NCBI GenBank assembly: GCA_049287025.1 | Contig: JBAQFA010000022.1 | Span: 30,225 to 94,224 of the forward strand | Direction of reading: 5' to 3' | DNA length: 64,000 nucleotides | Source of the DNA: Candidatus Magasanikiibacteriota bacterium | GTDB lineage: Bacteria; Patescibacteriota; Patescibacteriia; Magasanikbacterales; UBA922 | Shown: in pieces, positions 14 to 57,590 of the stretch | Numbering within the stretch: the first letter of the stretch is position 1 | Layout: each line of letters begins with the position of its first letter | Made by a program: the position numbers and the translations under genes | Notes under the pieces: generated by a model | The model's input: the letters and a program-made list of their open reading frames with translations, nothing else | Databases searched by the model: none | What the model was told of the DNA's origin: nothing

Positions 14-42
14 TTGACAAAACATATAAAAATGTGTATACT
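14..42 (+). promoter_or_regulatory. sigma70-like promoter TTGACA-17-TATACT driving high-GC ORF
   Basis: ttgaca at 14-19, 17-nt spacer, tatact at 37-42; GGAGG at 60-64 five nt before ATG 70. Confidence 0.5.
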
Positions 43-69
43 TTTTTTAACAACTGACTGGAGGCGACC

Positions 70-291
70 ATGAGTCGCTCGACATTTGCTAGGAGGATGC
101 GCGAAGTGGCGAGGGCCTCTGGCCTTCGTCGTGGTGCTATCCGTCAGCAGGTAGTGGTATTCACCCCTAACGGCCAGTACGTGGGCCGAATCAAGCGGGT
201 GGAGGGATACCAGGTGGTGATTGCTTCTAGGTCGTTGATCGAGCGCAAGATCCGCGGATCTCGGATTCGCAAGATCACGCTCGTCGGCTAG
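70..291 (+). CDS. hypothetical basic 73-aa protein, compositionally foreign (high G+C)
   Basis: ORF with strong G/C third-position bias in AT-rich genome; own promoter and SD. Confidence 0.45.
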   Translation: MSRSTFARRMREVARASGLRRGAIRQQVVVFTPNGQYVGRIKRVEGYQVVIASRSLIERKIRGSRIRKITLVG

Positions 292-454
292 GGCATTCGT
301 GCTCAAGCCGACAAAAAAGGCACATTCAACAACCTACAAGGAGAACAAGGGGGGCCGACACAACAAGGAGGCCCAAAAAAGATTATCATGTTTGGTAGTC
401 TTTTTTGTTTTTATATTCAATATTTTGCTTTACATCTGAGTTTGTGTTAAAATG

Positions 455-545
455 ATCTTTGTTAGGAGCGCTTCCGTTCAATACGGGGGCTGAGAAGTAT
501 CCTTATAACTTGATCTAGGTAATGCTAGCGCAAGGAAACAGAAAC
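455..545 (+). promoter_or_regulatory. TPP (THI-box) riboswitch
   Basis: ggagcgcttccgttcaatacgggggCTGAGAagtatccttataaCTTGATCTAGGTAATGCTAGCGCAAGGAA closely matches the conserved thiM-type aptamer (CUGAGA, ACCUGAUCUGGAUAAUGCCAGCGUAGGGAA); downstream alternative hairpins and T-run; upstream TTGCTT-17-TAAAAT promoter near 427-455. Confidence 0.8.
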
Positions 546-615
546 ACTAATTTTGTTCACTAATCTTCACTAATAGTGTTTGTTGTTTCCTTGTTAGGAA
601 ATTTTTTTGTTTTTA

Positions 616-1340: not shown

Positions 1341-2744
1341 ATGCTTAATATTTCATCTGTCGACTACTCAATAATCATAATCTATTTTATTTCCCTACTC
1401 GCTATTGGCTATTTTATCAAGCACAAATTTATTGAGACTTCTGATTATTTCTTGGCGGGCAGAAGGTTAACCTTACCAATTTTTGTGGCCACGCTTGTTA
1501 GCACTTGGTATGGTGGTACTATGGGAGTAGTGGAATTATCTTTCAATTATGGTTTGGTCAATTGGCTGACGCAGGGATTTTTTTGGTATTTGAGTTATTT
1601 ATTTTTTGCTTTTTTCTTGGCCAAAAAAGTCCGTCAATCAGAGCTTTTTACGGTACCTGATCAACTAGAAAAATTTTATGACAAACGGTCGCGTTTTTTG
1701 GGTGGAATTTTTAGTTTTCTCATGGTGACGCCAGCGCCTTATATTTTATCTTTGGGAATTATTTTTTCGTTATTTTTTGGTTGGCCAGTCTGGGCTGGAG
1801 CCTTGTTAAGTACTATTATTACGATTTTTTATACTTATCGTGGTGGTTTTCGAGCCGATGTCATTACTGATGTGATTCAATTTTTTCTAATGTTTATTGG
1901 TATTGGTTTGCTAGTTCCTTTTGCTGTAGCAAAATTTGGGGGCTTAAGTTTTTTACAAGCCAATTTACCAGCCACGCATTTTAGTTTAACCGGGGAGTGG
2001 ACCACACAAATGATTTTAGTTTGGGGATTTATTGCTTTTTGGACTTTGCTTGATCCGAGTTTTTATCAACGTTGTTATGCTACCAAAAATGATAAAATCC
2101 CTAAGAAGGGAATATTAATTTCAATTTTATTTTGGATGGTGTTTGATTTTTTTACGACCACGATTGGTATGTATGCTCGGGCAGCGATGCCAGACCTAGA
2201 TCCAGCCACAGCCTTACCCATGTTCGCGATCGCTGTTTTACCAAAAGTTTTTTTAGGATTATTTTTTACTGGTTTGATCGCTTCTATTTTATCTACCGTA
2301 GATTCTTTTACTATGCTTGGGGCGATGAATCTCTCTCATGATTTATACAAGAAAATTTTTAAGCCAGATCTTAGTGGAGAAAGAGAAATAAAATTAACTC
2401 GTTACGGCATAATTTTTACGGCTGGAATTTCTTTAATCATTGCTATTTTTGCTAGATCAATTATTGGTATCTGGTATACTATTGGAACAATTGGTATAAG
2501 TGCTATGTTAATTCCTCTATTGTTTGGTTTTTTTTACAAACGTAAACTCTGTGCCAGTGCTTCATTTTATTCTATGATTTTTGGGTCACTTACTGCCATC
2601 GGCTGGCTAATTTATGGCTATGCCAATATGGTTGATGGTTGGGCTAGTTATTTATGGGGTATAGAGCCGATGTATCCCGGACTTATCGTATCACTGGTCG
2701 TTTATATTGGAATAACAATATTTCAAAATAAAAAATCTCTATAA
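1341..2744 (+). CDS. sodium:solute symporter (SSS) family transporter
   Basis: about 13 TM segments, LAGRRL motif near N-terminus. Confidence 0.75.
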   Translation: MLNISSVDYSIIIIYFISLLAIGYFIKHKFIETSDYFLAGRRLTLPIFVATLVSTWYGGTMGVVELSFNYGLVNWLTQGFFWYLSYLFFAFFLAKKVRQSELFTVPDQLEKFYDKRSRFLGGIFSFLMVTPAPYILSLGIIFSLFFGWPVWAGALLSTIITIFYTYRGGFRADVITDVIQFFLMFIGIGLLVPFAVAKFGGLSFLQANLPATHFSLTGEWTTQMILVWGFIAFWTLLDPSFYQRCYATKNDKIPKKGILISILFWMVFDFFTTTIGMYARAAMPDLDPATALPMFAIAVLPKVFLGLFFTGLIASILSTVDSFTMLGAMNLSHDLYKKIFKPDLSGEREIKLTRYGIIFTAGISLIIAIFARSIIGIWYTIGTIGISAMLIPLLFGFFYKRKLCASASFYSMIFGSLTAIGWLIYGYANMVDGWASYLWGIEPMYPGLIVSLVVYIGITIFQNKKSL

Positions 2745-2752
2745 AAACGAAC

Positions 2753-2784
2753 GACCCCCGACATGCAACTTGCACGCGGGGGTC
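2753..2784 (-). terminator. GC-rich hairpin terminator of high-GC gene
   Basis: gacccccg...cgggggtc stem with inner tgcaa/ttgca stem; T-run follows on minus strand. Confidence 0.55.
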
Positions 2785-2808
2785 TGTTCTCTCGCCGGGG
2801 TGACGAGC

Positions 2809-3276
2809 TCAGCTGTAGAAGCCGAGCCTCTGCCACCAGTGGGGCGGGAAAACGACGTTCGGGTTGAACTTCTGGTCGGCATCGGTGGATGACACCTTTA
2901 CCGGCTTGATCTGGACGTCCCTGTTCACGAAGAACTGGAACGTCACGAGGTCACGACCGATGTAGGTGGAAACCACAGCTACCCCGTCCGATCCCGACTC
3001 TACGTAGCCGTAGTAGTCGAAGCCGGCACCAATCTTGGGGACTTCGAGGTAGAAGCCCACCAAGGTGGTGAAGGGTCGGCCGTCCTCGCTACGCAACACG
3101 ATGTTGCGCATGCCAGGCGTCTCCTGACCGCCGTAGCTGAACTCGACCAGGTGATGGCTCGACTCCGCGAACTGGTTGAAGAAGTTGAACTTCTTCATCA
3201 TTTCGCTGGCGAGGAACCAGCTGGTGGAGGCGAACAGGACGACCAGCAATGCAAGCAGAATCGTGAGCTTGTTCAA
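2809..3276 (-). CDS. hypothetical membrane-anchored protein, compositionally foreign (high G+C)
   Basis: TTG start at 3276 preceded by GGAGAG; N-terminal TM helix; track ORF to 3348 would overlap its own promoter. Confidence 0.45.
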   Translation of the reverse strand: MNKLTILLALLVVLFASTSWFLASEMMKKFNFFNQFAESSHHLVEFSYGGQETPGMRNIVLRSEDGRPFTTLVGFYLEVPKIGAGFDYYGYVESGSDGVAVVSTYIGRDLVTFQFFVNRDVQIKPVKVSSTDADQKFNPNVVFPPHWWQRLGFYS

Positions 3277-3319
3277 TTGTCTCTCCAGATTTGGGTTGTT
3301 CTCAACTTCCGAACGATTC

Positions 3320-3348
3320 AATATAACATAAAAACAGACCTTTGTCAA
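3320..3348 (-). promoter_or_regulatory. sigma70-like promoter TTGACA-17-TATATT (minus strand)
   Basis: tgtcaa 3343-3348 and aatata 3320-3325 on plus strand. Confidence 0.5.
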
Positions 3349-6882: not shown

Positions 6883-6925
6883 AAAATTACAACACTATTG
6901 TATCATCTTTTATTAAATAAAAAAA

Positions 6926-6950
6926 CTCCCCAGGGTTGGTGGGGAGTTCT
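6926..6950. terminator. bidirectional intrinsic terminator aaaaaactccccagggttggtggggagtt
   Basis: A-run, GC stem, T-run. Confidence 0.6.
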
Positions 6951-7605: not shown

Positions 7606-7633
7606 TAAAAAAACTCCCCAGGGTGGGGAAGTT
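7606..7633. terminator. intrinsic terminator aaaaaactccccagggtggggaagttt
   Basis: same family as 6926. Confidence 0.55.
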
Positions 7634-9049: not shown

Positions 9050-9079
9050 TTGACTAAGTATATAAAATTTGGTTAAATA
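9050..9079 (+). promoter_or_regulatory. sigma70-like promoter TTGACT-17-TTAAAT
   Basis: immediately upstream of high-GC ORF, SD ctgagg. Confidence 0.4.
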
Positions 9080-9102
9080 TTTTTGGTAACCAACTGAGGC
9101 TG

Positions 9103-9300
9103 ATGATGTGTCTCTTTAGCGAGCTGTCCGAGGGATCGCACTTCCATCGGAAGGACGACCATGTGATCTACAAGAGGATGCGGCTGGCCTGGTATGTGTT
9201 TTGGCTCGGAATCTGCCGAGCCAACGCCGTCCGACTCGAGGATGGCAGTGGCCCGAAGTACTGTCGGGTCGCGGACAATACGGAGGTCGTCTGGGTCTAG
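9103..9300 (+). CDS. hypothetical 65-aa protein, compositionally foreign (high G+C)
   Basis: highest GC3 of the overlapping frames; promoter and SD; GC hairpin 9313-9340 after stop. Confidence 0.35.
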   Translation: MMCLFSELSEGSHFHRKDDHVIYKRMRLAWYVFWLGICRANAVRLEDGSGPKYCRVADNTEVVWV

Positions 9301-9413
9301 CCAACCCACCCCCCCCTGTGATATCGTGTTGCAGGGGGCAACCGAGATTGGGAGGATTTTTATAAACACCCACCATGACTTGCTTTGATTCTGTTTTATA
9401 AAACCGAGTTAGA

Positions 9414-9500
9414 GTAAGGAGACGGTGGGTGTTTTGTTTTATAAAAAAACTCCATAGGGTGGTGTTTAGGGTTCCAGAAAAAAAAGAAAATCAATAATAA
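9414..9500. repeat. direct repeat copy 1 (about 85 bp) flanking high-GC cassette
   Basis: about 90% identical to 9991-10082; contains terminator-like core aaaaaactccatagggtggtg. Confidence 0.7.
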
Positions 9501-9593
9501 AATTACTTGACAAATTTTGTGATATGTTATAGCATAAGACGCTGTATCAGTGGGCCTTTAGTGTCACTTGGACAATAAACGGAGGTGAGGACC

Positions 9594-9899
9594 ATGATCG
9601 TCTTTGGCTGGCTGAAGAAACTTCGGGAACGGAAGGTGCGACGCCTAGAGCAGCAGGAGGCTGCGAGGGCGAAGATGCGGCAGGCGATTGTCGCCTTCAA
9701 CGAGGAGGACTCTGTTGATCCGGTGGCTCGGATCAACAAGGTGGTGCCCATCCTGCAGGCCTACACCACCCTAGCCGACGCTTTCGACCCCGGGTGGCGA
9801 CAGTGGGGGAAGTGCGACCTCACGACTATTCCGGAACTCCACGAGTTCCGAGGCTACATCGGGGTCGTTTTCGCCGACTGTGAGAGCCTGTTCGACTGA
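9594..9899 (+). CDS. hypothetical 101-aa protein, compositionally foreign (high G+C)
   Basis: GGAGGTGAGG SD 9581-9590; TTGACA 9506-9511 promoter; high G+C. Confidence 0.4.
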   Translation: MIVFGWLKKLRERKVRRLEQQEAARAKMRQAIVAFNEEDSVDPVARINKVVPILQAYTTLADAFDPGWRQWGKCDLTTIPELHEFRGYIGVVFADCESLFD

Positions 9900-9990
9900 C
9901 CACAGTTCGTTGGCTTGTAGAGAGGGGGCAAGTCAACGGTACAACAACAACCATTCCACCCCTCGTTAATATTTCAGAATTGGAATAATA

Positions 9991-10082
9991 GCGAAGGAGA
10001 AGAGGAATGGTTTTTGTTTTATAAAAAAACTACATAGGGTGGTGCTTAGGGTTCCAGCAGAAAAAGAAAATCAATAATAAAA
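9991..10082. repeat. direct repeat copy 2
   Basis: see 9414-9500. Confidence 0.7.
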
Positions 10083-49244: not shown

Positions 49245-49291
49245 TTAAGATTATTAAAATAGATTAATAAATTTCTAATTCACTCAAACTA

Positions 49292-50860
49292 TTATAAATC
49301 ATTACCAGAATATGATAAATTAAAACTTTTATTAATTAATGGAAAATCAGGTACAATATTACCAATACCTGCATATCCCAGTACAGACCAGTTGACAAAT
49401 GATGGATCACGAGGAAAAACCCTGTCAATCTCCCCTATTGAATTAGTTGTTACAAAATACATTATTTCTCCACGCCAACCTTCTACAGAACTAATGGCCA
49501 AAGAATTTTTTTCTAACTTATTAATTCCTTGACAAACAATTTTGCCCTTTGGCAATTTTTCTAAAGCTTTTTCAATGACCGCTATTGATGAACGTACCTC
49601 TTTCACTCGAACAAAAAATCTAGCGTAAGCATCACCATCTTGTTCAACAGGAACATCTCCAATAGAAAGTTCACTATAAGCTGCATAAGGAAAATCAATA
49701 CGAGTATCACGCGCAACTCCTAAAGCTCGACTCGGAACCCCCACTATTCCATGATCTACAGCAACATACGAAGGTAATTTTCCTGTGCCTTTTAAACGAT
49801 TTAAAAGTGAGACACTGTTTTCGGCAATGGCAATAATTTCAGAAAAATCTTTGTTTATTTTATTTAATTCAAGGGATAAAAATTTAATATTATTTTCATC
49901 TAAATCTTTTTTTACTCCACTAACAGTGTTTACTCCACGCAAAAATCTACTACCAGTTAATTTTTCATTAATCTGCATTACCATTTCTCGTAATCTCGCA
50001 CCATTACTTCCCCCAAAATTAAAACCAGTATCCAACATCATGGCACCAATATCACCAAAATGATTTGCCAATCTTTCTAATTCAGCAAAAATAACTCGTA
50101 AATAATTAGCTCTTTTTGGTACGACAGTATTACTCAGCTGCTCTACGGCCTGACAAAAAGCCAATGAGTGACTAAAAGAACTATCACCAGAAATTTTTTC
50201 TGAGAGTTTTATTTTTTCATCTAAAGATAATTGTTCAAATAATTTTTCACTGCCTTTGTGAACATATCCTAGACGTGATTCTAACAACAAAATTTCTTCG
50301 CCAGCTACACTAAAACGAAAATGACCTGGCTCAATAATACCAGCATGAATCGGACCAACAGGAATTTCGTAAACACCCTCGCCTTCTACTTTTTGAAATT
50401 TGTATAAGTCATTATGTGCATTGGCTGGCCTGTTATTCCAATCAAAATCTTTTCGCAAAGGAAACATGTTTGTTGGCCAATTTTCATGCAAAATTACAGG
50501 TCTTTCATCAGGATGTCCAATTGGCTTTAGACCAAAAAAAGTTTTAATTCTTCGTTCATAAATCCAGGCCTCATGCATAGTAGGAGCCAAGGCTGGGAAT
50601 TCTTCAGAATTTTTTAATACTATAAATGGAATAATAAAACATTTTTCTTCTGGTGATGCAAATACATACCATATTTTGTAACACCCATTTTCTTTTCGTT
50701 CATCTGTGGCAGTAATTAATTTTAAAGAAAGCTTTTCATTATCATGTAAGTCGTGGGCTAATTTGATAATTTCTGTCGTTGGTACTTCAAAAATTACCGT
50801 ATTATCAAAAGATGAAACTTTGGTATCTTTAGTAATATATTTTGTTAATATTTGGTTCAT
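49292..50860 (-). CDS. NuoC-NuoD-like fused large subunit lacking NiFe-ligand cysteines
   Basis: GPIHAGIIEPGHFRF..GEEIL; site aligned to RICGVCxxSH reads KISGDSSFSHSLA; C-terminus SFNLSYSGNDL vs DPCxSCTDR. Confidence 0.7.
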   Translation of the reverse strand: MNQILTKYITKDTKVSSFDNTVIFEVPTTEIIKLAHDLHDNEKLSLKLITATDERKENGCYKIWYVFASPEEKCFIIPFIVLKNSEEFPALAPTMHEAWIYERRIKTFFGLKPIGHPDERPVILHENWPTNMFPLRKDFDWNNRPANAHNDLYKFQKVEGEGVYEIPVGPIHAGIIEPGHFRFSVAGEEILLLESRLGYVHKGSEKLFEQLSLDEKIKLSEKISGDSSFSHSLAFCQAVEQLSNTVVPKRANYLRVIFAELERLANHFGDIGAMMLDTGFNFGGSNGARLREMVMQINEKLTGSRFLRGVNTVSGVKKDLDENNIKFLSLELNKINKDFSEIIAIAENSVSLLNRLKGTGKLPSYVAVDHGIVGVPSRALGVARDTRIDFPYAAYSELSIGDVPVEQDGDAYARFFVRVKEVRSSIAVIEKALEKLPKGKIVCQGINKLEKNSLAISSVEGWRGEIMYFVTTNSIGEIDRVFPRDPSFVNWSVLGYAGIGNIVPDFPLINKSFNLSYSGNDL

Positions 50861-50864
50861 AATA

Positions 50865-52304
50865 TTAATAAGTCAATGACACCATATTTATTAATTTTGA
50901 CAAAAATGGCGGGAGATAAAAACTTAGACAAAAAACTATAACTAATAATACCAATGGTGAAACAAGCAACCAACCACTAACTTCACCAACTGCTACATCA
51001 TCAGTTTTCTTTCCAAAAAACATTTTTGTGACATGTTTAAGAAATCCAACAAAAACTATCGTCGTAAAGATAATAACTAAAATAGTTACAATCGGATTAG
51101 TTTTTATACCAACAGATAAAATTAACATTTTGGAAAAAAATATACCAAACGGTGGCATTCCAGTTAGAATTAAAAAGCCAATTATAAATATTATACTGGT
51201 GAAAGGAACAACACTTAGCGCACCTTTAATTCTATTAATTTTTGATGAATTATATTTCAACAATAAATTACCAGAAGAAAAAAAGAGAATTGCTTTTATA
51301 CATGAGTGGTAAATTAAGTGAATAGTGGCAGCAAAACCACCCAAACCACCCAAACCAAAACCAAGTATAATTAACCCCGCATTCTCAATGCTTGAATATG
51401 CTAACAATCTTTTATAATTCTTGGCATTAAACATAATTAACGCTGGAATACCGATTGATAACATACCAAAAATAATTAACAAATTTTTACTAAATAAATT
51501 ACCCACAGCAATATCTGTAATAATCTTAAATTTCATTACAATAACAAAAGCTACTGGTAATAAGGCACCTGACAATAGCGCCCCAAGAGGTGCTGGTGCT
51601 TTACTGTAAGCATCTGGTTTCCAAGTGTGCATTGGCACCAATCCAATTTTGGTTCCATAACCAATGAGAATAAAAATAAAGGCAATCTTCCCTAACAGTG
51701 GATCAAGATGAATGGCATTATCTGCTAAAATTTGCCAGTTAATTAATCCAGTATTAGACAAATTAACTGAAGTAAAATATAAAAGGGTGCCAAAAAATCC
51801 CAAAATTAAACCAATGGAATTTATAATTAAATATTTCCACGCTCCTTCTATTGCCGAAGGCTTATTGTAAAAACTAATTAAAAAAGCAGTTGATAAAGTT
51901 GTGGCTTCAATTGAGATCCAGGCAAAAATTGGACTACTAGCTGTAATAGCCAAAAACATGGCCAAAAGAAAAATGTTTAGCAAAGTAAAAAATTGTTTGA
52001 CTCGATGAAATCCAATAATATTTTTTGCTGTTTCTTGATGAAAATATTGAATTGAGTAAATAGTAGTGACAAAACCAATTAGTCCAACAATTAGCATGGT
52101 AATTGCACTAAGAGCATCAACATAAAATATTCCGTATTGCATGTAGGATCCAATTTCTGCCACCTTAATAGCTACTATAATTGATCCAGTCAAGGTCACA
52201 CCTGAAGATAGTACGGAACAGGCTTCAACGCTACTTCGGTGTTTTATAAAAAAACAAATGGCAGAAGCTATAATAAGTGATATTAAAATGATAATAATTT
52301 CCAT
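50865..52304 (-). CDS. NuoN/NuoM/MrpD-like antiporter subunit
   Basis: HTWKPDAYSKAPAPLGALLSG motif, 14 TM. Confidence 0.7.
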   Translation of the reverse strand: MEIIIILISLIIASAICFFIKHRSSVEACSVLSSGVTLTGSIIVAIKVAEIGSYMQYGIFYVDALSAITMLIVGLIGFVTTIYSIQYFHQETAKNIIGFHRVKQFFTLLNIFLLAMFLAITASSPIFAWISIEATTLSTAFLISFYNKPSAIEGAWKYLIINSIGLILGFFGTLLYFTSVNLSNTGLINWQILADNAIHLDPLLGKIAFIFILIGYGTKIGLVPMHTWKPDAYSKAPAPLGALLSGALLPVAFVIVMKFKIITDIAVGNLFSKNLLIIFGMLSIGIPALIMFNAKNYKRLLAYSSIENAGLIILGFGLGGLGGFAATIHLIYHSCIKAILFFSSGNLLLKYNSSKINRIKGALSVVPFTSIIFIIGFLILTGMPPFGIFFSKMLILSVGIKTNPIVTILVIIFTTIVFVGFLKHVTKMFFGKKTDDVAVGEVSGWLLVSPLVLLVIVFCLSFYLPPFLSKLINMVSLTY

Positions 52305-52308
52305 AGAA

Positions 52309-52956
52309 TTAGTCTTTTAAATATTTCATCTCAGTCACGTCTAAAGAACCAAAATGTTTTTGTATCATACCAATAAATACTGTTGCAATAATAATCCAGA
52401 CGAAGATATCAAAAACAATTCCGATTTGTAAAATTGGTGATTGTTCTAAACCAGCAAAAAAACCAAAAGCCACAATACTATTTTCCAACGAAAGTACGGC
52501 AATAATTTGTGAAAGCGCTACTTTACAATTTACAATCAAAAACAATGAGATAAATATCGCTGATAATGCCAAATATAAAAGATGTTCGTTGGCAGGAATA
52601 ATATGAGCGAGTGATACAAATAATTTTGAGTGAGCAAAAGCAGTCAAAATTGTCACGGAAATAAGAGTAAGTGGCGTATTGACGTAAGTCGTAACTAAAA
52701 ATTTTAACTTGAATTTGTTAATTAAATTGATAAAGAAAGCCGGAGCTAAAATGACCTTTACCACCAGAACCAAACACGCTACAAAAAGTAATGACACTTT
52801 TCTTGTTTCCAAAAAAGAATTAATCAATAATAAAACAATGATTAGTGACTGCAGACTGTAAAGTACAGCCGTGGTAATATTTTTTTTGACAATATGTAAA
52901 GAGACTATTGTTATAAAAAATAATGTTAACAAAATTTGATTATAAAATGAGTTCAT
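52309..52956 (-). CDS. HyfE/EchA-like small membrane subunit
   Basis: 215-aa polytopic protein inside the cluster. Confidence 0.4.
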   Translation of the reverse strand: MNSFYNQILLTLFFITIVSLHIVKKNITTAVLYSLQSLIIVLLLINSFLETRKVSLLFVACLVLVVKVILAPAFFINLINKFKLKFLVTTYVNTPLTLISVTILTAFAHSKLFVSLAHIIPANEHLLYLALSAIFISLFLIVNCKVALSQIIAVLSLENSIVAFGFFAGLEQSPILQIGIVFDIFVWIIIATVFIGMIQKHFGSLDVTEMKYLKD

Positions 52957-53885
52957 AAATTACTTATTAATCCAAGCGCAATAATATTTAAGACAAAAGA
53001 AATAATCAATAAATCTGGCAAGCGAAAAAATCTATACTTTGCAATACTTGATTCAAGAATAGCAATTGCAAGATAAAAGATGGATATTTTTATTGCAAAA
53101 ATTATTAAACCTAAAAATAATGCTTTTAAATCTGCACTCTGAGCAATTCCCCAAGGGAAAAATAAATTCGCTCCTAGTGATATAAAAATTAACAGCTTAT
53201 TGGCAGAAGCCCATTCCATCAACGCTAATTTTTTTCCAGAATATTCCAATATCATGGCTTCATGAATCATGGTCAATTCCAAATGCGTGGCGGGATTATC
53301 AAACGGAAACCTGGCTGTTTCGGCCAATAACACTATAAAAAATCCAAAAAAGGCCAACAAAATTGATGAAAATGACTGACTATATGGAGAGACAATGTGA
53401 TTTGAAATATTAAATAAGTTTGTAGTATTGGCAACAATACTAATAGTCAATAAAGAAAAAATTAATCCCCCTTCTGCTAGAGCTGATATAGTCATTTCGC
53501 GACTTGATCCAAATCCACCAAATGCACTCCCACTATCCATACCTGATAACGCCAAAAAAAATGTTCCAATGGAGAGTAAATAGACAATTACCAATATATC
53601 ACTCGTAATGTTGTTAGAGAATAAACTTCCAAAAAGTGGAATACTAGCACCGACAATTATCGTCACGGTAAAAACAATAATCGGAGCGTAATGAAAAATC
53701 CAAGAAGCATCTTTACTAACAATCTCGTCTTTATGAAAAAGTTTGTATAAATCCCAATAAGGCTGAAAAATACTCGCTCCTTGTCGATTTTGCAGTTTGG
53801 CTTTTAATTTTTTTACCAAACCAACACCCAACGGCGAGAGTACTGGAACAAAAATACATTGAATTATCCAAATTACAATCATCAT
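52953..53885 (-). CDS. NuoH/HycD-like membrane subunit
   Basis: RFPFDNPATHLELTMIHEAMILEYSG motif. Confidence 0.7.
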   Translation of the reverse strand: MMIVIWIIQCIFVPVLSPLGVGLVKKLKAKLQNRQGASIFQPYWDLYKLFHKDEIVSKDASWIFHYAPIIVFTVTIIVGASIPLFGSLFSNNITSDILVIVYLLSIGTFFLALSGMDSGSAFGGFGSSREMTISALAEGGLIFSLLTISIVANTTNLFNISNHIVSPYSQSFSSILLAFFGFFIVLLAETARFPFDNPATHLELTMIHEAMILEYSGKKLALMEWASANKLLIFISLGANLFFPWGIAQSADLKALFLGLIIFAIKISIFYLAIAILESSIAKYRFFRLPDLLIISFVLNIIALGLISNL

Positions 53886-53888
53886 AAA

Positions 53889-55937
53889 TTAGTTGGCTAC
53901 AATTAAGGTAATAATCAAAGCAATAAATATATATAATATATAGGCATTGACGTTTCCACTCTGAATTTTTTTAAGTTTCTCTGATAATGTTTCAATAAAT
54001 TTTTGCATGGGTTCATATAGATGACTCCGATACATATCATTAATACTCAAAGTAACCCCTCTAAACTTTGGGAGATACCGACTTTTTTCGTCATGATATT
54101 CAACTTCATGCTGTAAACTTGGTTTTAAAACACCTCTAAATATGGTAATAATTGACCGAGAAAATCCAGTAGCCGTTATTTCCATTCTGGAGTTCAAATC
54201 AACACCGCAGTCCCAAGTAGCACCCGAACTAATATCTTGTTTTCTATACACTAAATATTTTACACTTAATAAAACAACCATAAATACGATTAACAATAAC
54301 AAAAGTAAAATTGGAGCCGAAACAAAAGAAAAGCTTCCAACACTTATACCTTGATCAGTGGATGTTTTTAGGACGGAAGAAACTGAACTTAAAACCTTCA
54401 AACTATTTCCGATGCCAAGTAAGATAGATGATATATAGCCAGAAAATACACCAAACAACAATGAACACAAGGCTAACATTCCCATACCAAAACGTAATGT
54501 CAATGATGATTCCTTGGCGTGCTTGACTTCTTCACTTCTGGGCCGAGCTAAAAAGGTCGCTCCAAAAGCCTTGACAAAACAGGCCAAGGCCAACCCACCA
54601 GTAAAAGCGAGAGCACCAGCCGAAACCATGAAAATCCATTTAGCAGAAAAATCCAATGCTATTATCCCCTGGAACAAGGACTGAAAAGTAAGCCATTCAC
54701 TGAAAAAACCATTAAACGGTGGCAGGGCCGAAATGGCCATGGAGCCAACCAAGAAAAACATGGCTGTGTAAGGCATAAATTTGATCAATCCACCATATTC
54801 TTCTATGTTTCTAGTGTGGGTGGCGTTGATTACTGATCCTGCTCCCAAAAATAATAACGACTTGAATGTGGCATGATTTAGCGTATGAAAAAGAGCCGCC
54901 ACCAAACCAAGAATCGCTAACGCTGGCATATTCAGTGAAGTAAAAGTCAAGGCACTTCCTAAACCGAGTAAAATAATTCCAATATTTTCAATACTATGAT
55001 AAGCCAGTAATCTTTTGATATCATGTTCGGTAAGTGCATACAACACTCCGAGTAACGAAGACACGGCGCCAACGATAAGAAGAGTAAGACCCCACCAGCT
55101 CGGGACAGGCTGTAAAATGTCCAAAAATAATCTAATCATCATGTAAATACCAGTCTTTATCATTACCCCAGACATTAATCCTGACACGTGGGAAGGAGCA
55201 GCTGGATGAGCGCTTGGTAACCAAATATGAAAAGGGATTACGCCAGCCTTGGTACCAAACCCGATCATGGCTAAAATAAAAATAATATTTTTAATTGATA
55301 ATGGAATCAAACCTACTTCTAATTTGATGTTTTCAAAATCAAAAGAACCGGTAAATTTGTAAAACAATATAAAAGCCAAAATAATAAACGCTGTGCCAAT
55401 GTGAGTCATAACTAGATACAAAAATCCAGCCTTGACATTGCTTTCATCGTGGCGATCATAAATGACAAGAAAAAATGAAGCCACTGACATAATTTCCCAA
55501 GCAACCAGAAAAAATAACTCATTACTAGCTGTAACGACCATCAACATACCAGCAATAAACAAGTTATAAAAAAAACCAAGTGCACCAATATTATATTTTT
55601 GATAATAATGTTTTACATAACCAACACCATAGACCGAACAGAATAAAGTGATAAGTGAAATTACAAATACAAAAAATGCGGACAATTTATCAATATGAAA
55701 AGATATTGAAAATAAAGGAAAAATAGATGTACCAAGCTGATAAGTTAGTTCGGACGAAACTGTTAACAACAAAAATGACAACCCTATCCCCCACAGTGAT
55801 CCCGCAATAGCAAAAACGTTGCCCCAAACGTTGGCAATTTTATCGCTCTTTTGAAAAACTAATGAACCAACCGCCCCCACAAAAAAGAATAGCAATAAAA
55901 TATTGAAACCTAATGATGACGTAAGAAAGCTAATCAT
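53889..55937 (-). CDS. NuoL/MrpA-like antiporter subunit
   Basis: HIWLPSAHPAAPSHVSGLMSGVMIKTGIY motif. Confidence 0.75.
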   Translation of the reverse strand: MISFLTSSLGFNILLLFFFVGAVGSLVFQKSDKIANVWGNVFAIAGSLWGIGLSFLLLTVSSELTYQLGTSIFPLFSISFHIDKLSAFFVFVISLITLFCSVYGVGYVKHYYQKYNIGALGFFYNLFIAGMLMVVTASNELFFLVAWEIMSVASFFLVIYDRHDESNVKAGFLYLVMTHIGTAFIILAFILFYKFTGSFDFENIKLEVGLIPLSIKNIIFILAMIGFGTKAGVIPFHIWLPSAHPAAPSHVSGLMSGVMIKTGIYMMIRLFLDILQPVPSWWGLTLLIVGAVSSLLGVLYALTEHDIKRLLAYHSIENIGIILLGLGSALTFTSLNMPALAILGLVAALFHTLNHATFKSLLFLGAGSVINATHTRNIEEYGGLIKFMPYTAMFFLVGSMAISALPPFNGFFSEWLTFQSLFQGIIALDFSAKWIFMVSAGALAFTGGLALACFVKAFGATFLARPRSEEVKHAKESSLTLRFGMGMLALCSLLFGVFSGYISSILLGIGNSLKVLSSVSSVLKTSTDQGISVGSFSFVSAPILLLLLLIVFMVVLLSVKYLVYRKQDISSGATWDCGVDLNSRMEITATGFSRSIITIFRGVLKPSLQHEVEYHDEKSRYLPKFRGVTLSINDMYRSHLYEPMQKFIETLSEKLKKIQSGNVNAYILYIFIALIITLIVAN

Positions 55938-55938
55938 A

Positions 55939-56481
55939 TTATTTTTTGGCTACAGATTTAGCGTCCAGTATTTCTAACAAATTTAATAAATGACAAATTA
56001 TCGTTTTCGGAGATGGTGGATTGCCTGGAATACAATAATCTACTGGTATTATATTGTCTACTCCATCAAAAGTGGCATAGGAACCCTTATATATTCCTCC
56101 ATTAATTGCATCATCGCCAACAGCTATAATAATTTTGGGGTTAGGGGTGGCATTGTAGGCTCTTCTTAAAGCCTCAGACATATTTCGCGTGACAGGTCCA
56201 GTGACCATCAACATATCAGCGTGCTTTGGAGACGCCACAAAATGAATACCAAAACGCTCCACATCATAAAAGGCATTGGAGAGTGCAACTAACTCCTGCT
56301 CGCAGGCGTTGTCCGAACCTGCGTCAACTTGTCTAATCGCCAACGACCCCTTAAATAATTTTTTTACATTATCTTGAATTTTTTTTCCTACAACATCCAA
56401 ATCTATTTTTTCACAATCAAAGTCACTTAGAGGAATAATATTATTGGAAGTAGAAAAAATTTTTAACAAAAGTTTCAGCAT
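55939..56481 (-). CDS. NuoB-like small subunit with N2-cluster cysteines replaced
   Basis: DAGSDNACE, GDDAINGG, IPGNPPSP in place of CCxxE, GxCxxxGG, GCPPRP. Confidence 0.7.
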   Translation of the reverse strand: MLKLLLKIFSTSNNIIPLSDFDCEKIDLDVVGKKIQDNVKKLFKGSLAIRQVDAGSDNACEQELVALSNAFYDVERFGIHFVASPKHADMLMVTGPVTRNMSEALRRAYNATPNPKIIIAVGDDAINGGIYKGSYATFDGVDNIIPVDYCIPGNPPSPKTIICHLLNLLEILDAKSVAKK

Positions 56482-56527
56482 ATTTTTAAAAGTATTTCAA
56501 TGTAATAAAAATATAACCATGCACACC

Positions 56528-56556
56528 ATTTTATATTATTTTTATTTTCTTGTCAA
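56528..56556 (-). promoter_or_regulatory. promoter TTGACA-17-TAAAAT of Ehr-like operon
   Basis: tgtcaa 56551-56556 and atttta 56528-56533 on plus strand; 13-bp IR aaaaaacattcac/gtgaatgtttttt flanks region 56560-56632. Confidence 0.5.
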
Positions 56557-56680
56557 TAAAAAAAACATTCACCCTTCTCCTTAAATTAATTCCATAATTA
56601 TAGAATCAAATCAAGTGTGGTGAATGTTTTTTCACTACCACCAACCCACCATCCCACTGGATGGCGGGGTTGACGGTTTT

Positions 56681-56893
56681 TTAGCCTGGGACGACAGAGA
56701 AGACCAACGTGTTGTCAGGGAAGTAAACCCTCTTCTGTCGAATTCCCTCGTCCAACATCACGGTGGCGATGGCGTTGTACTGATAGTGTTCATTGACAAC
56801 CACTAACAGTACTTTGGTGTAGAGCGTTCCCTCTGGGAGTTTCCCCAGACGAAACTTGCCGTTGACCGACAACTGACCAAAAGTCATATTCAT
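56681..56893 (-). CDS. hypothetical 70-aa protein, compositionally foreign (high G+C)
   Basis: high-G+C ORF; promoter TTGACA-16-TAGAAT; palindrome ccatccagtgggatgg after stop. Confidence 0.4.
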   Translation of the reverse strand: MNMTFGQLSVNGKFRLGKLPEGTLYTKVLLVVVNEHYQYNAIATVMLDEGIRQKRVYFPDNTLVFSVVPG

Positions 56894-56923
56894 GACCAGA
56901 CCACGTGGCAGTTTGAGTAATAT

Positions 56924-56951
56924 ATTCTATATTAAATTTAAATTTTGTCAA
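56924..56951 (-). promoter_or_regulatory. promoter TTGACA-16-TAGAAT for high-GC ORF
   Basis: tgtcaa 56946-56951. Confidence 0.45.
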
Positions 56952-56955
56952 TAAA

Positions 56956-56984
56956 AAAACACACATCATGATAGTGTGTGTTTT
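56956..56984 (-). terminator. terminator aaaacacacatcatgatagtgtgtgtttt
   Basis: 10-bp stem then T7 on minus strand; follows 57003-57449 gene. Confidence 0.6.
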
Positions 56985-57002
56985 AAAATCAGTAACTTTT
57001 AT

Positions 57003-57449
57003 TTATTTCTCAGTTTCTACATTATGACTAATTGTTATTTCTTCAATTACAATTTTCATTAATTTATCCAGTCTTGCGGATCCTTCTGCTCTTTCTTCTT
57101 TTCTAGTTGAAGGTAGTCGTTGCAATTCACTCTTACGTCTATTGATCTCGACCATAACTTGTAAAAACTTTTCTTTTGTGTCAATTTTTTTGATGCTATC
57201 AGCAAAATCTATCCATTCTTTAACACCACCACTAATACCCTCTTCTTTGGTAAAGGCGGCTAATATATTAGAAAAATCGGTGTGGTTTTTAATATTACCA
57301 TTATCAAATCCTTCCAAAATCATGTTATATTTAGCTTCCAAACCAATAGCTTCTCCTAAATTATGGCTTCCCTCTGCCAATTCCCTGTCATCTTTTGCTT
57401 GTATTAAATCTTCTAAGAATCGAGGTGTATCCCCATTTGGTTCACTCAT
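57003..57449 (-). CDS. hypothetical protein
   Basis: ORF only. Confidence 0.45.
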   Translation of the reverse strand: MSEPNGDTPRFLEDLIQAKDDRELAEGSHNLGEAIGLEAKYNMILEGFDNGNIKNHTDFSNILAAFTKEEGISGGVKEWIDFADSIKKIDTKEKFLQVMVEINRRKSELQRLPSTRKEERAEGSARLDKLMKIVIEEITISHNVETEK

Positions 57450-57544
57450 ATATTTTATATATTAAAAAATAAATATTACATATTAATATCTTAACATATC
57501 GCAAAAAAAAAACAAGCTTGAAGTAAAAATAGGGTGTGGACAAA

Positions 57545-57572
57545 AAACACACACCAATTTTGGTATGTGTTT
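57545..57572 (-). terminator. atp operon terminator
   Basis: aaacacacacc/ggtatgtgttt stem, T-run on minus. Confidence 0.6.
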
Positions 57573-57590
57573 TGTATTTTGTGTCTCGTG

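What the first reader, a model, noticed from the sequence alone, without database searches (positions are those of the whole stretch)
56620..56990. Compositional island 5: G+C-rich 70-aa gene inserted between the atp-proximal hypothetical gene and the Ehr-like operon promoter
On the minus strand, a terminator of the upstream gene is followed at once by TTGACA-16-TAGAAT, then a 70-aa high-G+C ORF (MNMTFGQLSVNGKFRLGKLPEG...), then a ccatccagtgggatgg palindrome. The next promoter region is flanked by a 13-bp inverted repeat (aaaaaacattcac / gtgaatgtttttt). The cassette sits exactly at an operon boundary, as expected for neutral insertion of a foreign module.
Basis: seen in the sequence. Interest (0 to 1): 0.55.

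Follow-up and report, generated by a model that had tools for sequence, protein, structure and literature searches.

The report
Conserved GC-rich mini-gene cassette, shared terminator
A 70-codon G+C-rich gene with its own promoter and an unusually elaborate terminator sits in an A+T-rich candidate-phyla-radiation chromosome; it is a real, fast-evolving orphan protein gene kept at the same spot in a sister lineage, and one of a small family of such cassettes that share the same 3' RNA module but carry unrelated genes.

Summary
The sequence features are all there, but the cassette runs to 56558, not 56620.

**What it is.** The window is core chromosome of a Ca. Magasanikiibacteriota MAG (33.7% GC). 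The unit consists of:
- a terminator;
- the promoter TTGACA-16-TAGAAT;
- a 70-codon ORF with GC3 0.67, against 0.23-0.33 in host genes;
- a GC hairpin;
- a long nested terminator hairpin carrying AAGGAGA, followed by U8.

**Coding evidence.** Only one protein homolog exists (55% identity). It lies at the same position after atpC in a sister genome whose AtpD is 96% identical, and it is G+C-rich there too. dN/dS is 0.40, and 0 of 186 permutations reach that value. The promoter and 3' tail are better conserved than the ORF. So this is a selected, fast-evolving orphan protein gene that predates the split. It is not a recent neutral insertion and not an ncRNA.

**The shared tail.** The same tail architecture follows islands 3 and 4 and two cassettes in another CPR contig, with compensatory changes at 19 of 27 stem positions. 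It follows no native gene. The cargo proteins are unrelated orphans.

**Origin.** Cassettes are bracketed by direct repeats of the local terminator or tRNA end, and no recombinase or phage gene lies in the window. Foreign origin is plausible but unproven. The function of the protein and of the AAGGAGA tail is unknown.

The parts
56953..56984 (-). Upstream intrinsic terminator: hairpin AAAACACACACUA...UGUGUGU followed by U7. It abuts the cassette promoter.
   Evidence: Seen in the sequence. Fold -10.7 kcal/mol, z -3.1. It is conserved together with the cassette in L082, although the upstream gene differs there. A near-copy follows atpC at about 57575-57535.
56924..56951 (-). Sigma-70-type promoter: TTGACA, 16 nt, TAGAAT.
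   Evidence: Matches 11 of 12 consensus positions. The same boxes and spacing occur in L082, with TAAAAT as the -10 box.
56894..56917 (-). Inferred 5' leader of about 24 nt, with no Shine-Dalgarno motif. The transcription start is inferred from the position of the -10 box.
   Evidence: The leader is nearly identical in L082 (AUAUAUUACUCAAACU...). No GGAG, GAGG or AGGA lies upstream of the AUG. The same is true of 41 of 44 native genes.
56681..56893 (-). 70-codon ORF (NCBI aa, WA057_04105): an orphan, fast-evolving protein gene, predicted all-beta.
   Evidence: ORF listed. GC1/2/3 of 0.51/0.30/0.67. One homolog, P0006: 55% identity, E 8e-16. dN/dS 0.40. In permutations only 9.3% keep the ORF open, and 0 of 186 of those reach dN/dS of 0.40 or lower. 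The AlphaFold2 model has pLDDT 54 and five strands.
56641..56672 (-).
   Evidence: The whole tail folds at -57.8 kcal/mol, z -8.7. Hairpin 1 is almost invariant in L082 and recognisable in L137.
56558..56632 (-). 3'-UTR hairpin 2, the cassette terminator. Its parts are: outer stem 56632-56619 / 56573-56560 (A-tract plus CAUUCACC, pairing with GGUGAAUG plus U-tract); inner helix of 13-16 bp within 56615-56580; invariant AAGGAGA at 56582-56576 in the 3' internal loop; U8 at 56565-56558.
   Evidence: Inverted repeats I1 and I2. Folds. Compensatory changes against L082, island 3, island 4 and L137. Covariance model R1 scores it 127.6 bits. Sequence conservation with L082 stops at the U-tract.
56945..56959 (-). 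Left copy of the perfect 15-nt direct repeat TTTTTTTATTGACAA (U-tract plus -35 box).
   Evidence: Repeat family D1, spacing 395 nt. The exact 12-mer TTTTTATTGACA occurs only at these two places in the 64 kb.
56550..56564 (-). Right copy of the same 15-nt direct repeat. It overlaps the -35 box of the Ehr-operon promoter (56556-56528).
9050..9442 (+). Sister cassette, island 3: promoter TTGACT-17-TTAAAT (9050-9078), 65-codon GC-rich ORF 9103-9300 (GC3 0.78), and a tail of the same architecture at 9320-9442.
   Evidence: Sequence. GC3. R1 match of 38 bits, E 9e-7. Fold z -7.7.
9507..10021 (+). Sister cassette, island 4: promoter TTGACA-17-TAGCAT (9507-9535), Shine-Dalgarno GGAGGTGA, 101-codon ORF 9594-9899 (GC3 0.79), and a tail at 9910-10021. 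It is bracketed by 71-nt direct repeats at 9432-9502 and 10012-10082.
   Evidence: repeat family D2, 94% identity. R1 match of 32 bits, E 2e-5. Fold z -6.1.

Best explanation
The feature is a self-contained, monocistronic mini-gene cassette.

**How it is built and read (partly inferred).**
- A near-consensus sigma-70 promoter starts a transcript of about 360 nt. The transcript length and ends are inferred.
- A short leader without a Shine-Dalgarno motif precedes a 70-codon ORF.
- The ORF encodes a small, probably all-beta, cytoplasmic orphan protein. It evolves about 18 times faster than AtpD but is still under purifying selection.
- The 3' UTR has two hairpins. The second is a long nested stem closed by an A-tract/U-tract pair and followed by U8. 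It most likely terminates transcription, insulates the Ehr promoter that starts 2 nt later, and possibly stabilises the mRNA. All three roles are inferred.

**History.** The cassette was already in place, just downstream of the atp operon, in the common ancestor of two Magasanikbacteria lineages, and it has been retained since.

**Family.** It belongs to a lineage-restricted family of cassettes with this layout: AT-rich promoter, then a GC-rich and mostly Shine-Dalgarno-bearing orphan ORF, then a GC hairpin, then the AAGGAGA terminator hairpin. The cargo ORFs are unrelated, but the 3' module is conserved in structure.

**Likely origin (inferred).** The G+C-rich cargo most likely came from outside this A+T-rich genome, which makes little use of Shine-Dalgarno motifs. 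The cassettes appear to have entered at terminator/U-tract junctions by recombination that duplicated the local target.
For: **It is a real coding gene.**
- GC3-GC2 is 0.37, reached by 0 of 2000 shuffles.
- The ORF, its start codon and its frame are kept in the ortholog, with one clean one-codon indel.
- dN is 0.31, dS is 0.77 and dN/dS is 0.40, against 0.04-0.12 for atpD, atpC and the Na/H exchanger.
- Random placement of the 61 substitutions keeps the ORF open in 9.3% of replicas, and 0 of 186 open replicas reach dN/dS of 0.40 or lower.

**It is syntenic and old.**
- The only homolog (P0006) lies in the order atpD, atpC, [67 aa], Na/H exchanger in GCA_003510435.1 and in seven other contigs.
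- That copy has GC3 0.61 against a 0.24 background.
- A second assembly of the window's own population differs by 1 base in 12,968.

**The non-coding parts are under selection.**
- The promoter, leader and tail are nearly invariant, while the ORF is about 69% identical, which is close to the level at synonymous sites.
- Conservation ends at the U-tract.

**The tail structure is supported.**
- The tail folds with z -8.7.
- Six tails folded independently give the same architecture, with z from -6.1 to -8.5.
- 94-97% of cells are paired, and compensatory changes occur at 9 of 14 outer and 10 of 13 inner positions.

**The tail is specific to the cassettes.**
- With filters off, covariance model R1 finds only islands 5, 3 and 4 in the 64 kb. 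Every other sense-strand match has E above 0.1; one antisense self-hit on island 5's own palindromic hairpin scores E 6e-5.
- In 100 other loci it finds only the ortholog and two cassettes in L137.

**Signs of insertion.**
- Island 5 is flanked by a 15-nt perfect direct repeat.
- Island 4 is flanked by a 71-nt repeat.
- L137 cassette A is flanked by a 19-nt perfect repeat of the tRNA-Lys 3' end plus a repeated terminator.

**Foreign style.**
- Only 3 of 44 native genes have a Shine-Dalgarno-like motif. Islands 1, 3 and 4 do, and so do both L137 ORFs (read directly from the sequence).
- Cassette ORFs have GC3 of 0.51-0.82, against 0.23-0.33 for host genes.
Against: - No transcript, protein or termination data exist. 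The transcription start, the 3' end and translation are all inferred.
- Island 5 itself lacks a Shine-Dalgarno motif, so the 'foreign style' argument applies to its sister cassettes rather than to it.
- No donor lineage or more distant homolog was found among 1.84 billion representatives. Foreign origin therefore rests on composition alone.
- The family is defined by six tails from only three genomes. The alignment of the two most divergent tails was fitted by hand, although single-sequence folds agree.
- The flanking repeats consist of a U-tract plus a -35 box. These are functional motifs that could recur without any insertion event.
- The role of the invariant AAGGAGA is unexplained.
Confidence: 0.65

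Rival explanations
1. A recently acquired foreign module was dropped neutrally at an operon boundary. It is tolerated because it disrupts nothing, and it has no function of its own.
For: - The composition is anomalous.
- The protein is an orphan.
- The module has its own promoter and terminator.
- It is flanked by a 15-nt direct repeat.
- It lies in a region where modules differ between close relatives.
Against: - It is present at the same position in a sister lineage, with dS of about 0.77 between the two copies.
- dN/dS of 0.40 is well below the neutral expectation of 0.91, with 0 of 186 permutations reaching it.
- The promoter and tail are conserved well above the level at synonymous sites.
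Confidence: 0.08
2. The G+C-rich island is a structured non-coding RNA, as G+C-rich islands in A+T-rich genomes often are. On this view the 70-codon ORF is a by-product of having few stop codons in G+C-rich sequence.
For: - The minus strand of the island folds far better than shuffles, z -4.9.
- The tail alone folds with z -8.7.
- There is no Shine-Dalgarno motif before the AUG.
- The non-coding tail is the best-conserved part.
- Other long open frames exist on both strands.
Against: - No Rfam family matches even at E of 10 or lower beyond noise.
- The composition shows strong three-base periodicity.
- dN/dS is 0.40, the frame is preserved and the indel is a clean 3 nt.
- Native genes also lack Shine-Dalgarno motifs, so its absence here is uninformative.
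- Covariation inside the ORF rests on two sequences only.
Confidence: 0.07
3. A mobile gene-cassette system, integron-like in logic. The conserved two-hairpin tail would be a recombination site, recognised as folded DNA or RNA. A recombinase encoded elsewhere would use it to insert orphan ORFs next to terminators or tRNA ends.
For: - Unrelated cargo genes carry a 3' palindrome that is conserved in structure but variable in sequence.
- Islands 3 and 4 form a tandem pair.
- Each of three cassettes is bracketed by direct repeats of the local target: 15, 71 and 19 (extending to about 53) nt.
- One cassette lies at a tRNA-Lys 3' end.
- The tail never follows a native gene in the sequences examined.
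Against: - No integrase, transposase or phage gene lies anywhere in the 64 kb.
- The attC core motifs (RYYYAAC / GTTRRRY) are absent, as read directly from the sequence.
- Every cassette has its own promoter.
- The U-tract after the stem and the A-tract before it are what an intrinsic terminator needs.
- The island 5 cassette has stayed at one locus across a speciation event.
- Flanking repeats of variable length fit homologous recombination better than site-specific recombination.
Confidence: 0.15
4. A native, vertically inherited gene whose G+C-richness is maintained by selection, for example for mRNA structure or stability or for special codon use, and does not reflect foreign origin.
For: - Both orthologs keep GC3 of 0.61-0.67 despite a 0.24 background.
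- The whole mRNA is strongly structured.
- No donor was found.
Against: - The two genomes are so close (AtpD 96% identical) that slow decay from a higher starting GC explains the retained bias without invoking selection.
- Sister cassettes carry Shine-Dalgarno motifs that are alien to this genome.
- The island 2 protein has homologs of native composition in a 50% GC genome.
- Cassettes are flanked by target duplications.
Confidence: 0.1

Closest known systems
Phage 'morons' (independent transcription units in prophage genomes; PMC3594210)
   Same: A single small gene with its own promoter and its own factor-independent terminator. Its GC content differs from that of the surrounding genes, and it is inserted between two functional gene blocks. 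The definition was read.
   Different: - The host is a core chromosome (atp, Ehr, mur, mre and tRNA-synthetase genes), not a prophage.
- There are no PHROG matches and no similarity to phage or plasmid DNA.
- Morons are not known to share a common 3' RNA module across unrelated cargo genes. That statement rests on my own knowledge.
Integron gene cassettes with attC sites
   Same: Small, mostly orphan ORFs of deviant composition. Each is followed by an imperfect palindrome whose structure, not its sequence, is conserved. They sometimes occur in tandem.
   Different: - There are no R''/R' core sites, no intI or attI, and every cassette has its own promoter.
- The palindrome is flanked by A and U tracts like a terminator.
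- The cassettes are scattered, not arranged in an array.
Bidirectional intrinsic (Rho-independent) terminators
   Same: A stem preceded by an A-tract and followed by a U-tract of 7-8 residues. Sequence conservation ends at the U-tract.
   Different: - The stem is about 30 bp long, nested, and has a conserved internal loop with an invariant AAGGAGA. The loop exceeds what the consensus scan accepts, so one search did not list it.
- Ordinary terminators in the same window are short GC hairpins.
Palindromic intergenic repeats and MITEs (REP/BIME, Correia, RUP)
   Same: A hairpin element of about 75 nt with perfect 14-nt terminal inverted repeats. It is located 3' of genes and present in several copies.
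   Different: The copies differ by compensatory changes that preserve pairing, which indicates selection on structure and not decay of a repeat. No solitary copies were seen. The element always follows a G+C-rich ORF.

Membership tests
Phage moron | Own promoter and own terminator around a single gene | tested here: met
   TTGACA-16-TAGAAT matches 11 of 12 positions. A two-hairpin tail ends in U8. No transcript data are available.
Phage moron | GC content differs from the flanking genes | tested here: met
   50% against 33.7% overall. GC3 is 0.67 against 0.23-0.33.
Phage moron | Resides in a phage or prophage genome | tested here: not met
   All other genes of at least 130 aa in the window that found a Pfam match are housekeeping genes; seven such ORFs had no match. 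No PHROG hit. No phage or plasmid DNA match. No tail copies in viral contigs.
Phage moron | Absent from the same position in related genomes ('more DNA') | tested here: not met
   It is present at the same position in the sister lineage L082. It is absent from the distant relatives L003 and L014.
Integron gene cassette | attC site with R''(RYYYAAC)/L''/L'/R'(GTTRRRY) cores | tested here: not met
   By direct reading of the six tails, the outer arms are A-tract plus CAYYCACC pairing with GGUGRRUG plus U-tract. There is no GTTRRRY.
Integron gene cassette | Integron integrase and attI nearby, or an array of promoterless cassettes | tested here: not met
   No recombinase in the 64 kb. Each cassette has its own -35 and -10 boxes. 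Only islands 3 and 4 are in tandem.
Integron gene cassette | The structure of the 3' palindrome is conserved while its sequence varies | tested here: met
   94-97% of cells are paired, with compensatory changes at 19 of 27 positions. Independent folds agree.
Intrinsic terminator | Stable stem immediately followed by a U-tract | tested here: met
   A perfect 14-bp outer stem plus a 13-16-bp inner helix, then U8. Termination itself is not testable here.
Known structured RNA family (Rfam 15) | Match to a covariance model at or near its gathering score | tested here: not met
   The only gathering-level hit in the window is a TPP riboswitch at 454-553. In 56450-57050 the best hit is 21 bits against a gathering score of 54.
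Type I toxin-antitoxin locus | Small hydrophobic membrane toxin with an overlapping antisense RNA | tested here: not met
   The protein has no hydrophobic stretch (sequence) and is predicted all-beta. Only weak antisense promoter-like sites, matching 9 of 12 positions, were found. An antisense RNA was not tested further.
Anti-phage defence protein (PADLOC) | Match to a known defence-system model | tested here: not met
   No hit for any cassette protein.

The most novel reading that the evidence does not exclude
These cassettes are a previously undescribed, CPR-restricted gene-capture or mobility system. G+C-rich, Shine-Dalgarno-bearing, fast-evolving orphan ORFs would be packaged between a consensus promoter and a conserved two-hairpin 'AAGGAGA' module. 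The module would serve as the handle for insertion at terminator or tRNA 3' ends, using machinery encoded elsewhere, and would double as a terminator and stability element. The system would supply episymbiotic bacteria with a rapidly turning-over set of small effector proteins.
Probability: 0.2. Interest if true: 0.8.

Novelty: new variant of a known kind. Interest (0 to 1): 0.55.

Why it matters
CPR (Patescibacteria) genomes are tiny and full of unannotated small genes.

If confirmed, this would show that some of these genes arrive and persist as standardised expression cassettes. Each cassette would have a foreign-looking ORF, a native-style promoter and a dedicated structured terminator module.

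That would give three things:
- a handle (covariance model R1) for finding such cassettes systematically;
- a candidate class of fast-evolving proteins involved in host or phage interaction;
- a concrete case of modular gene gain and loss at terminator junctions in reduced genomes.

It is also a caution for annotation. Two of the five island ORFs in this window (islands 1 and 3) are not in the protein collection at all. The presumably non-coding tail is the most conserved part of the locus.

Tried and rejected
**RNA and tRNA searches**
- Rfam (gathering and E-value modes) and ARAGORN found nothing in the island.

**Protein family and structure searches**
- Pfam, PHROGs, PADLOC and NCBIfam on all cassette proteins gave nothing significant.
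- A PDB sequence search gave nothing better than E 0.3.
- AlphaFold2 on the two-sequence alignment gave pLDDT 54, too low to interpret. Foldseek against PDB gave nothing below E 4.

**Relatedness among island proteins**
- By eye I thought the island 3 and island 5 proteins shared a C-terminal ...DNTxVxxV motif. BLASTP, and an HMM of the island 5 family run against 788 ORFs, rank island 3 at E = 42, so I rejected this.

**Homolog searches**
- The word-index protein search, both single-sequence and profile, returned only the two known clusters.
- The hits P0007 and P0008 in the exhaustive search are giant repeat proteins at E of about 1e-4. I treated them as spurious.

**Collection scans**
- The metagenome scan with the tail pattern gave 120 stretches (137 matches in all loci fetched). 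Six are followed by a T-run, and only one of those is a true family member, L137.
- Two viral-contig scans gave no family member.
- Syntenic loci from 14 more distant CPR genomes carry neither the ORF nor the tail.

**Reinterpretations considered and dropped**
- The mini-ORF that starts at the AUG/GUG 7-8 nt after AAGGAGA has no conserved frame or sequence beyond the U-tract, so I do not regard it as coding (direct reading of the tails).
- The 'AAAAAAACTCC...' motif downstream of the island 3 and island 4 tails turned out to be a decayed copy of the ordinary bidirectional terminators at 6925-6950 and 7608-7633.
Full report
**Source and setting.** The window has 33.7% GC. Its genes are ordinary chromosomal genes:
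- thiamin pyrophosphokinase behind a TPP riboswitch;
- ClpB, GltX, SerRS, LysRS and ProRS;
- Mur ligase, PBP2 and MreBC;
- an AddA-like helicase;
- an Ehr/Mbh-like NuoB/L/H/D complex and the atp operon.

The 68-aa version of the ORF is annotated in NCBI as a hypothetical protein of a Candidatus Magasanikiibacteriota MAG. A second assembly of the same population, L001, differs from the window by one base in 12,968. The island is therefore not an assembly chimera.

**Checking the observation.**
- a hairpin plus U7 at 56984-56953;
- TTGACA-16-TAGAAT at 56951-56924, matching 11 of 12 positions;
- the 70-codon ORF at 56893-56681;
- the palindrome ccatccagtgggatgg at 56664-56649;
- an inverted repeat that is really 14 nt and perfect, at 56632-56619 and 56573-56560.

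The compositional island spans 56611-56881 at 50% GC. The ORF has GC1/2/3 of 0.51/0.30/0.67, against GC3 of 0.23-0.33 in host genes. This periodicity is not reached in 2000 shuffles in which the longest ORF was taken each time.

**RNA or protein?** G+C-rich islands in A+T-rich genomes are often structured RNAs, and the minus strand does fold well (z -4.9). However, Rfam gives nothing, and the coding evidence is strong.

- An exhaustive HMMER search of 1.84 billion representatives found exactly one homologous cluster, P0006 (67 aa, 55% identity, E 8e-16).
- The two genes share the start M-[ND]-M-x-FGQL and differ by one clean codon indel.
- dN is 0.31, dS is 0.77 and dN/dS is 0.40. For atpD, atpC and the Na/H exchanger of the same genome pair, dN/dS is 0.04-0.12.
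- When the 61 observed substitutions are placed at random, the ORF stays open in only 9.3% of replicas. Among the 186 open replicas the median dN/dS is 0.91, and none reaches 0.40.

It is therefore a genuine protein gene that evolves about 18 times faster than AtpD at non-synonymous sites. Nothing is known about the protein. Pfam, PHROGs, PADLOC, NCBIfam and PDB give no match. The AlphaFold2 model is a low-confidence five-stranded beta structure (pLDDT 54) with no meaningful structural neighbour.

**Synteny.** P0006 is encoded in GCA_003510435.1 (Ca. Magasanikbacteria) and in seven further contigs. Six places from different samples were listed. The gene order is always atpD, atpC, [67 aa], Na/H exchanger.

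The window has the order atpD, atpC, hyp148, [70 aa], six-gene Ehr operon, Na/H exchanger. AtpD is 96% identical between the two genomes. The cassette was therefore present in their common ancestor, and the 148-aa gene and the Ehr operon are what differ between them.

The ortholog is also a G+C island, with GC3 0.61 against 0.24. Because the two genomes are so close, a retained GC bias does not by itself require selection. It only dates the acquisition, if there was one, to before the split.

Fourteen more distant CPR loci that carry the NuoB-like gene have neither the ORF nor the tail. In two of them the atpC-to-Ehr interval holds unrelated variable genes.

**What is conserved.** In the alignment of the two cassettes, four parts are nearly invariant:
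- the upstream terminator;
- both promoter hexamers and their spacing;
- the first 17 nt or so of the leader;
- about 100 nt of the 3' tail.

The ORF is about 69% identical, which is close to the level at synonymous sites in neighbouring genes. Similarity stops exactly at the U-tract. The non-coding ends are thus under stronger constraint than the protein.

**The 3' tail.** The 131 nt after the stop codon fold into two hairpins (-57.8 kcal/mol, z -8.7).

- Hairpin 2 (56632-56558) has three layers:
  - a 14-bp outer stem, formed by an A-tract plus CAUUCACC pairing with GGUGAAUG plus a U-tract;
  - an internal loop;
  - a 13-16-bp A+U-rich inner helix.
- An invariant AAGGAGA lies in the 3' internal loop, and the hairpin ends in U8.

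It closes the cassette's own terminator and does not flank the next promoter. The TATAAT between the arms is the apical loop and varies among homologs. The strong Ehr promoter, TTGACA-17-TAAAAT, starts 2 nt after the U-tract.

Against the ortholog, every substitution in the two helices preserves or improves pairing: U-A to C-G, G-U to G-C, U·U to A-U, and U-A to U-G.

**A family of cassettes.** A descriptor scan and covariance model R1, built from three tails, gave the same picture.

- In the whole 64 kb with filters off, R1 finds only island 5 (127.6 bits), island 3 (9320-9442, E 9e-7) and island 4 (9910-10021, E 2e-5). Apart from an antisense self-hit on island 5's own hairpin (E 6e-5), all other matches have E above 0.1.
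- In 100 other loci it finds only the ortholog and two convergent cassettes on a third CPR contig, L137 (FLOH01000657.1).
- L137 itself came from a metagenome scan in which it was the only true match among 137.

Each of the six tails folds on its own into the same nested architecture, with z from -6.1 to -8.5. In a manual register, 94% of outer and 97% of inner cells pair. Compensatory double changes occur at 9 of 14 outer and 10 of 13 inner positions. The two most divergent members were aligned by hand.

All six tails follow G+C-rich ORFs with GC3 of 0.51-0.82. Each of those ORFs is preceded by a sigma-70-like promoter. None follows a native gene.

The cargo proteins have 65, 101, 70, 75 and 139-152 aa. 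They are unrelated to each other and to anything known.

Islands 1 and 2 have the same overall plan of promoter, Shine-Dalgarno motif, G+C-rich ORF and terminator, but simpler tails.

**Foreign style.** Only 3 of 44 native genes have GGAG, GAGG or AGGA within 20 nt of the start codon. Islands 1, 3 and 4 carry GGAGG, GAGG or GGAGGUGA. Both L137 ORFs carry AGAGG or GAGGUG upstream of the start, as read directly from the sequence. Island 5 has none.

The island 2 protein has a homolog of native composition in a 50% GC genome, next to tRNA-Gln. This fits an outside origin for the cargo, but no donor was identified for island 5.

**Insertion signatures.**
- Island 5 is bracketed by a perfect 15-nt direct repeat, TTTTTTTATTGACAA (56959-56945 and 56564-56550). 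Its 12-nt core occurs nowhere else in the window.
- Island 4 is bracketed by 71-nt repeats that are 94% identical.
- L137 cassette A lies between tRNA-Lys and a perfect 19-nt copy of the tRNA's 3' end plus a repeated terminator.
- The A+T-rich hyp148 unit lies between two similar terminators.
- The Ehr-operon indel relative to L082 falls exactly at 'TTTTTTTAT|' junctions.

Modules in this region therefore appear to be gained and lost by recombination at terminator and U-tract junctions. The repeats vary in length and are made of local sequence. This fits homology-driven (Campbell-type) events better than a dedicated site-specific system.

No integrase, transposase or phage gene lies in the window. 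There is no similarity to phage or plasmid DNA. No tail was found in viral contigs.

**Comparison with known systems.**
- In logic the unit is closest to a phage 'moron': its own promoter, its own terminator and a deviant GC content (PMC3594210). It is not in a prophage, and it is shared by a sister lineage.
- It resembles an integron cassette in having orphan cargo plus a 3' palindrome conserved in structure. It lacks attC cores, an integrase and promoterless organisation.
- The tail meets the structural definition of an intrinsic, potentially bidirectional terminator. It is far more elaborate than the ordinary terminators of the same genome, and it carries an invariant Shine-Dalgarno-like heptamer whose role I cannot explain. 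From memory, Shine-Dalgarno-like 'STAB-SD' elements stabilise some Gram-positive mRNAs. That is a lead, not a test.

**Verdict.**
- The interpretation 'foreign module' is plausible but unproven.
- The interpretation 'neutral insertion' is contradicted.
The cassette is one member of a small, lineage-restricted family defined by a shared, covarying 3' RNA module attached to unrelated, fast-evolving orphan genes.

I rate it a new variant of a known kind (moron-like or cassette-like autonomous units), of moderate interest. There is a minority chance that it marks a genuinely new cassette-mobility system in CPR bacteria.

Noticed in passing
window 454-553 (+): A TPP riboswitch (67.8 bits, above the gathering score) lies directly upstream of a thiamin pyrophosphokinase gene (576-1247). 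It sits just downstream of G+C island 1.
   Followed up: partly
window 26-396 (+), ORF 70-291: G+C island 1: TTGACA-17-TATACT, a GGAGG Shine-Dalgarno motif, and a 73-codon basic ORF (GC3 0.68). Its tail has AAGGAG motifs and an A-tract/U-tract hairpin but no nested inner helix. The ORF is absent from the public protein collection.
   Followed up: partly
window 2715-3324 (-), ORF 2809-3348: G+C island 2: a 170-179-aa membrane-anchored orphan protein (GC3 0.82) with a plain GC hairpin terminator. Its small family (P0002-P0005) shares a C-terminal PPHWWQRLGFY motif. One member has native composition in a 50% GC genome, next to tRNA-Gln (L088 8968-9549).
   Followed up: partly
window 9432-9502 and 10012-10082: A 71-nt direct repeat (94% identical) brackets the island 4 cassette. 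Part of it looks like a decayed copy of the ordinary bidirectional terminators seen at about 6925-6950 and 7608-7633.
   Followed up: partly
whole window (44 native genes): Native genes almost never have a Shine-Dalgarno motif (3 of 44). Many start codons sit directly behind A+T-rich or TATAAT-like sequence. The G+C-rich cassettes mostly do carry GGAGG-type motifs.
   Followed up: partly
window 57003-57590 (-): The A+T-rich 148-aa orphan gene next to the cassette is itself bracketed by two similar terminators: AAAACACATACC...GGTGTGTGTTTTTT after atpC, and AAAACACACACTA...TGTGTGTTTTTTT after the gene. It is missing from the sister genome L082.
   Followed up: partly
window about 49290-56556 (Ehr operon), compared with L082 10340-10360: The whole six-gene Ehr/Mbh-like operon is present in the window lineage and absent from the sister lineage. 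The break points lie exactly at 'TTTTTTTAT|' junctions after terminator hairpins.
   Followed up: partly
L137 1237-2139: tRNA-Lys (1237-1310) is followed by an 828-bp segment that holds a 75-codon G+C-rich cassette. The segment ends in a perfect 19-nt copy of the tRNA's 3' end plus a repeated terminator. This resembles attL/attR of a tiny integrated element that has no integrase.
   Followed up: partly
L082 12913-14181 (-): The sister genome has another G+C-rich (50-53%) orphan ORF of 302-311 aa with no Pfam match, a few kb downstream of the cassette. No R1-type tail is found there.
   Followed up: no
window 9103-9300 (+) versus 9073-9369 (-): In island 3 the longest ORFs are on the minus strand (98 and 86 aa). 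The promoter, the Shine-Dalgarno motif, the GC3 signal (0.78) and the tail all point to the 65-codon plus-strand ORF. That ORF is not in the protein collection.
   Followed up: partly
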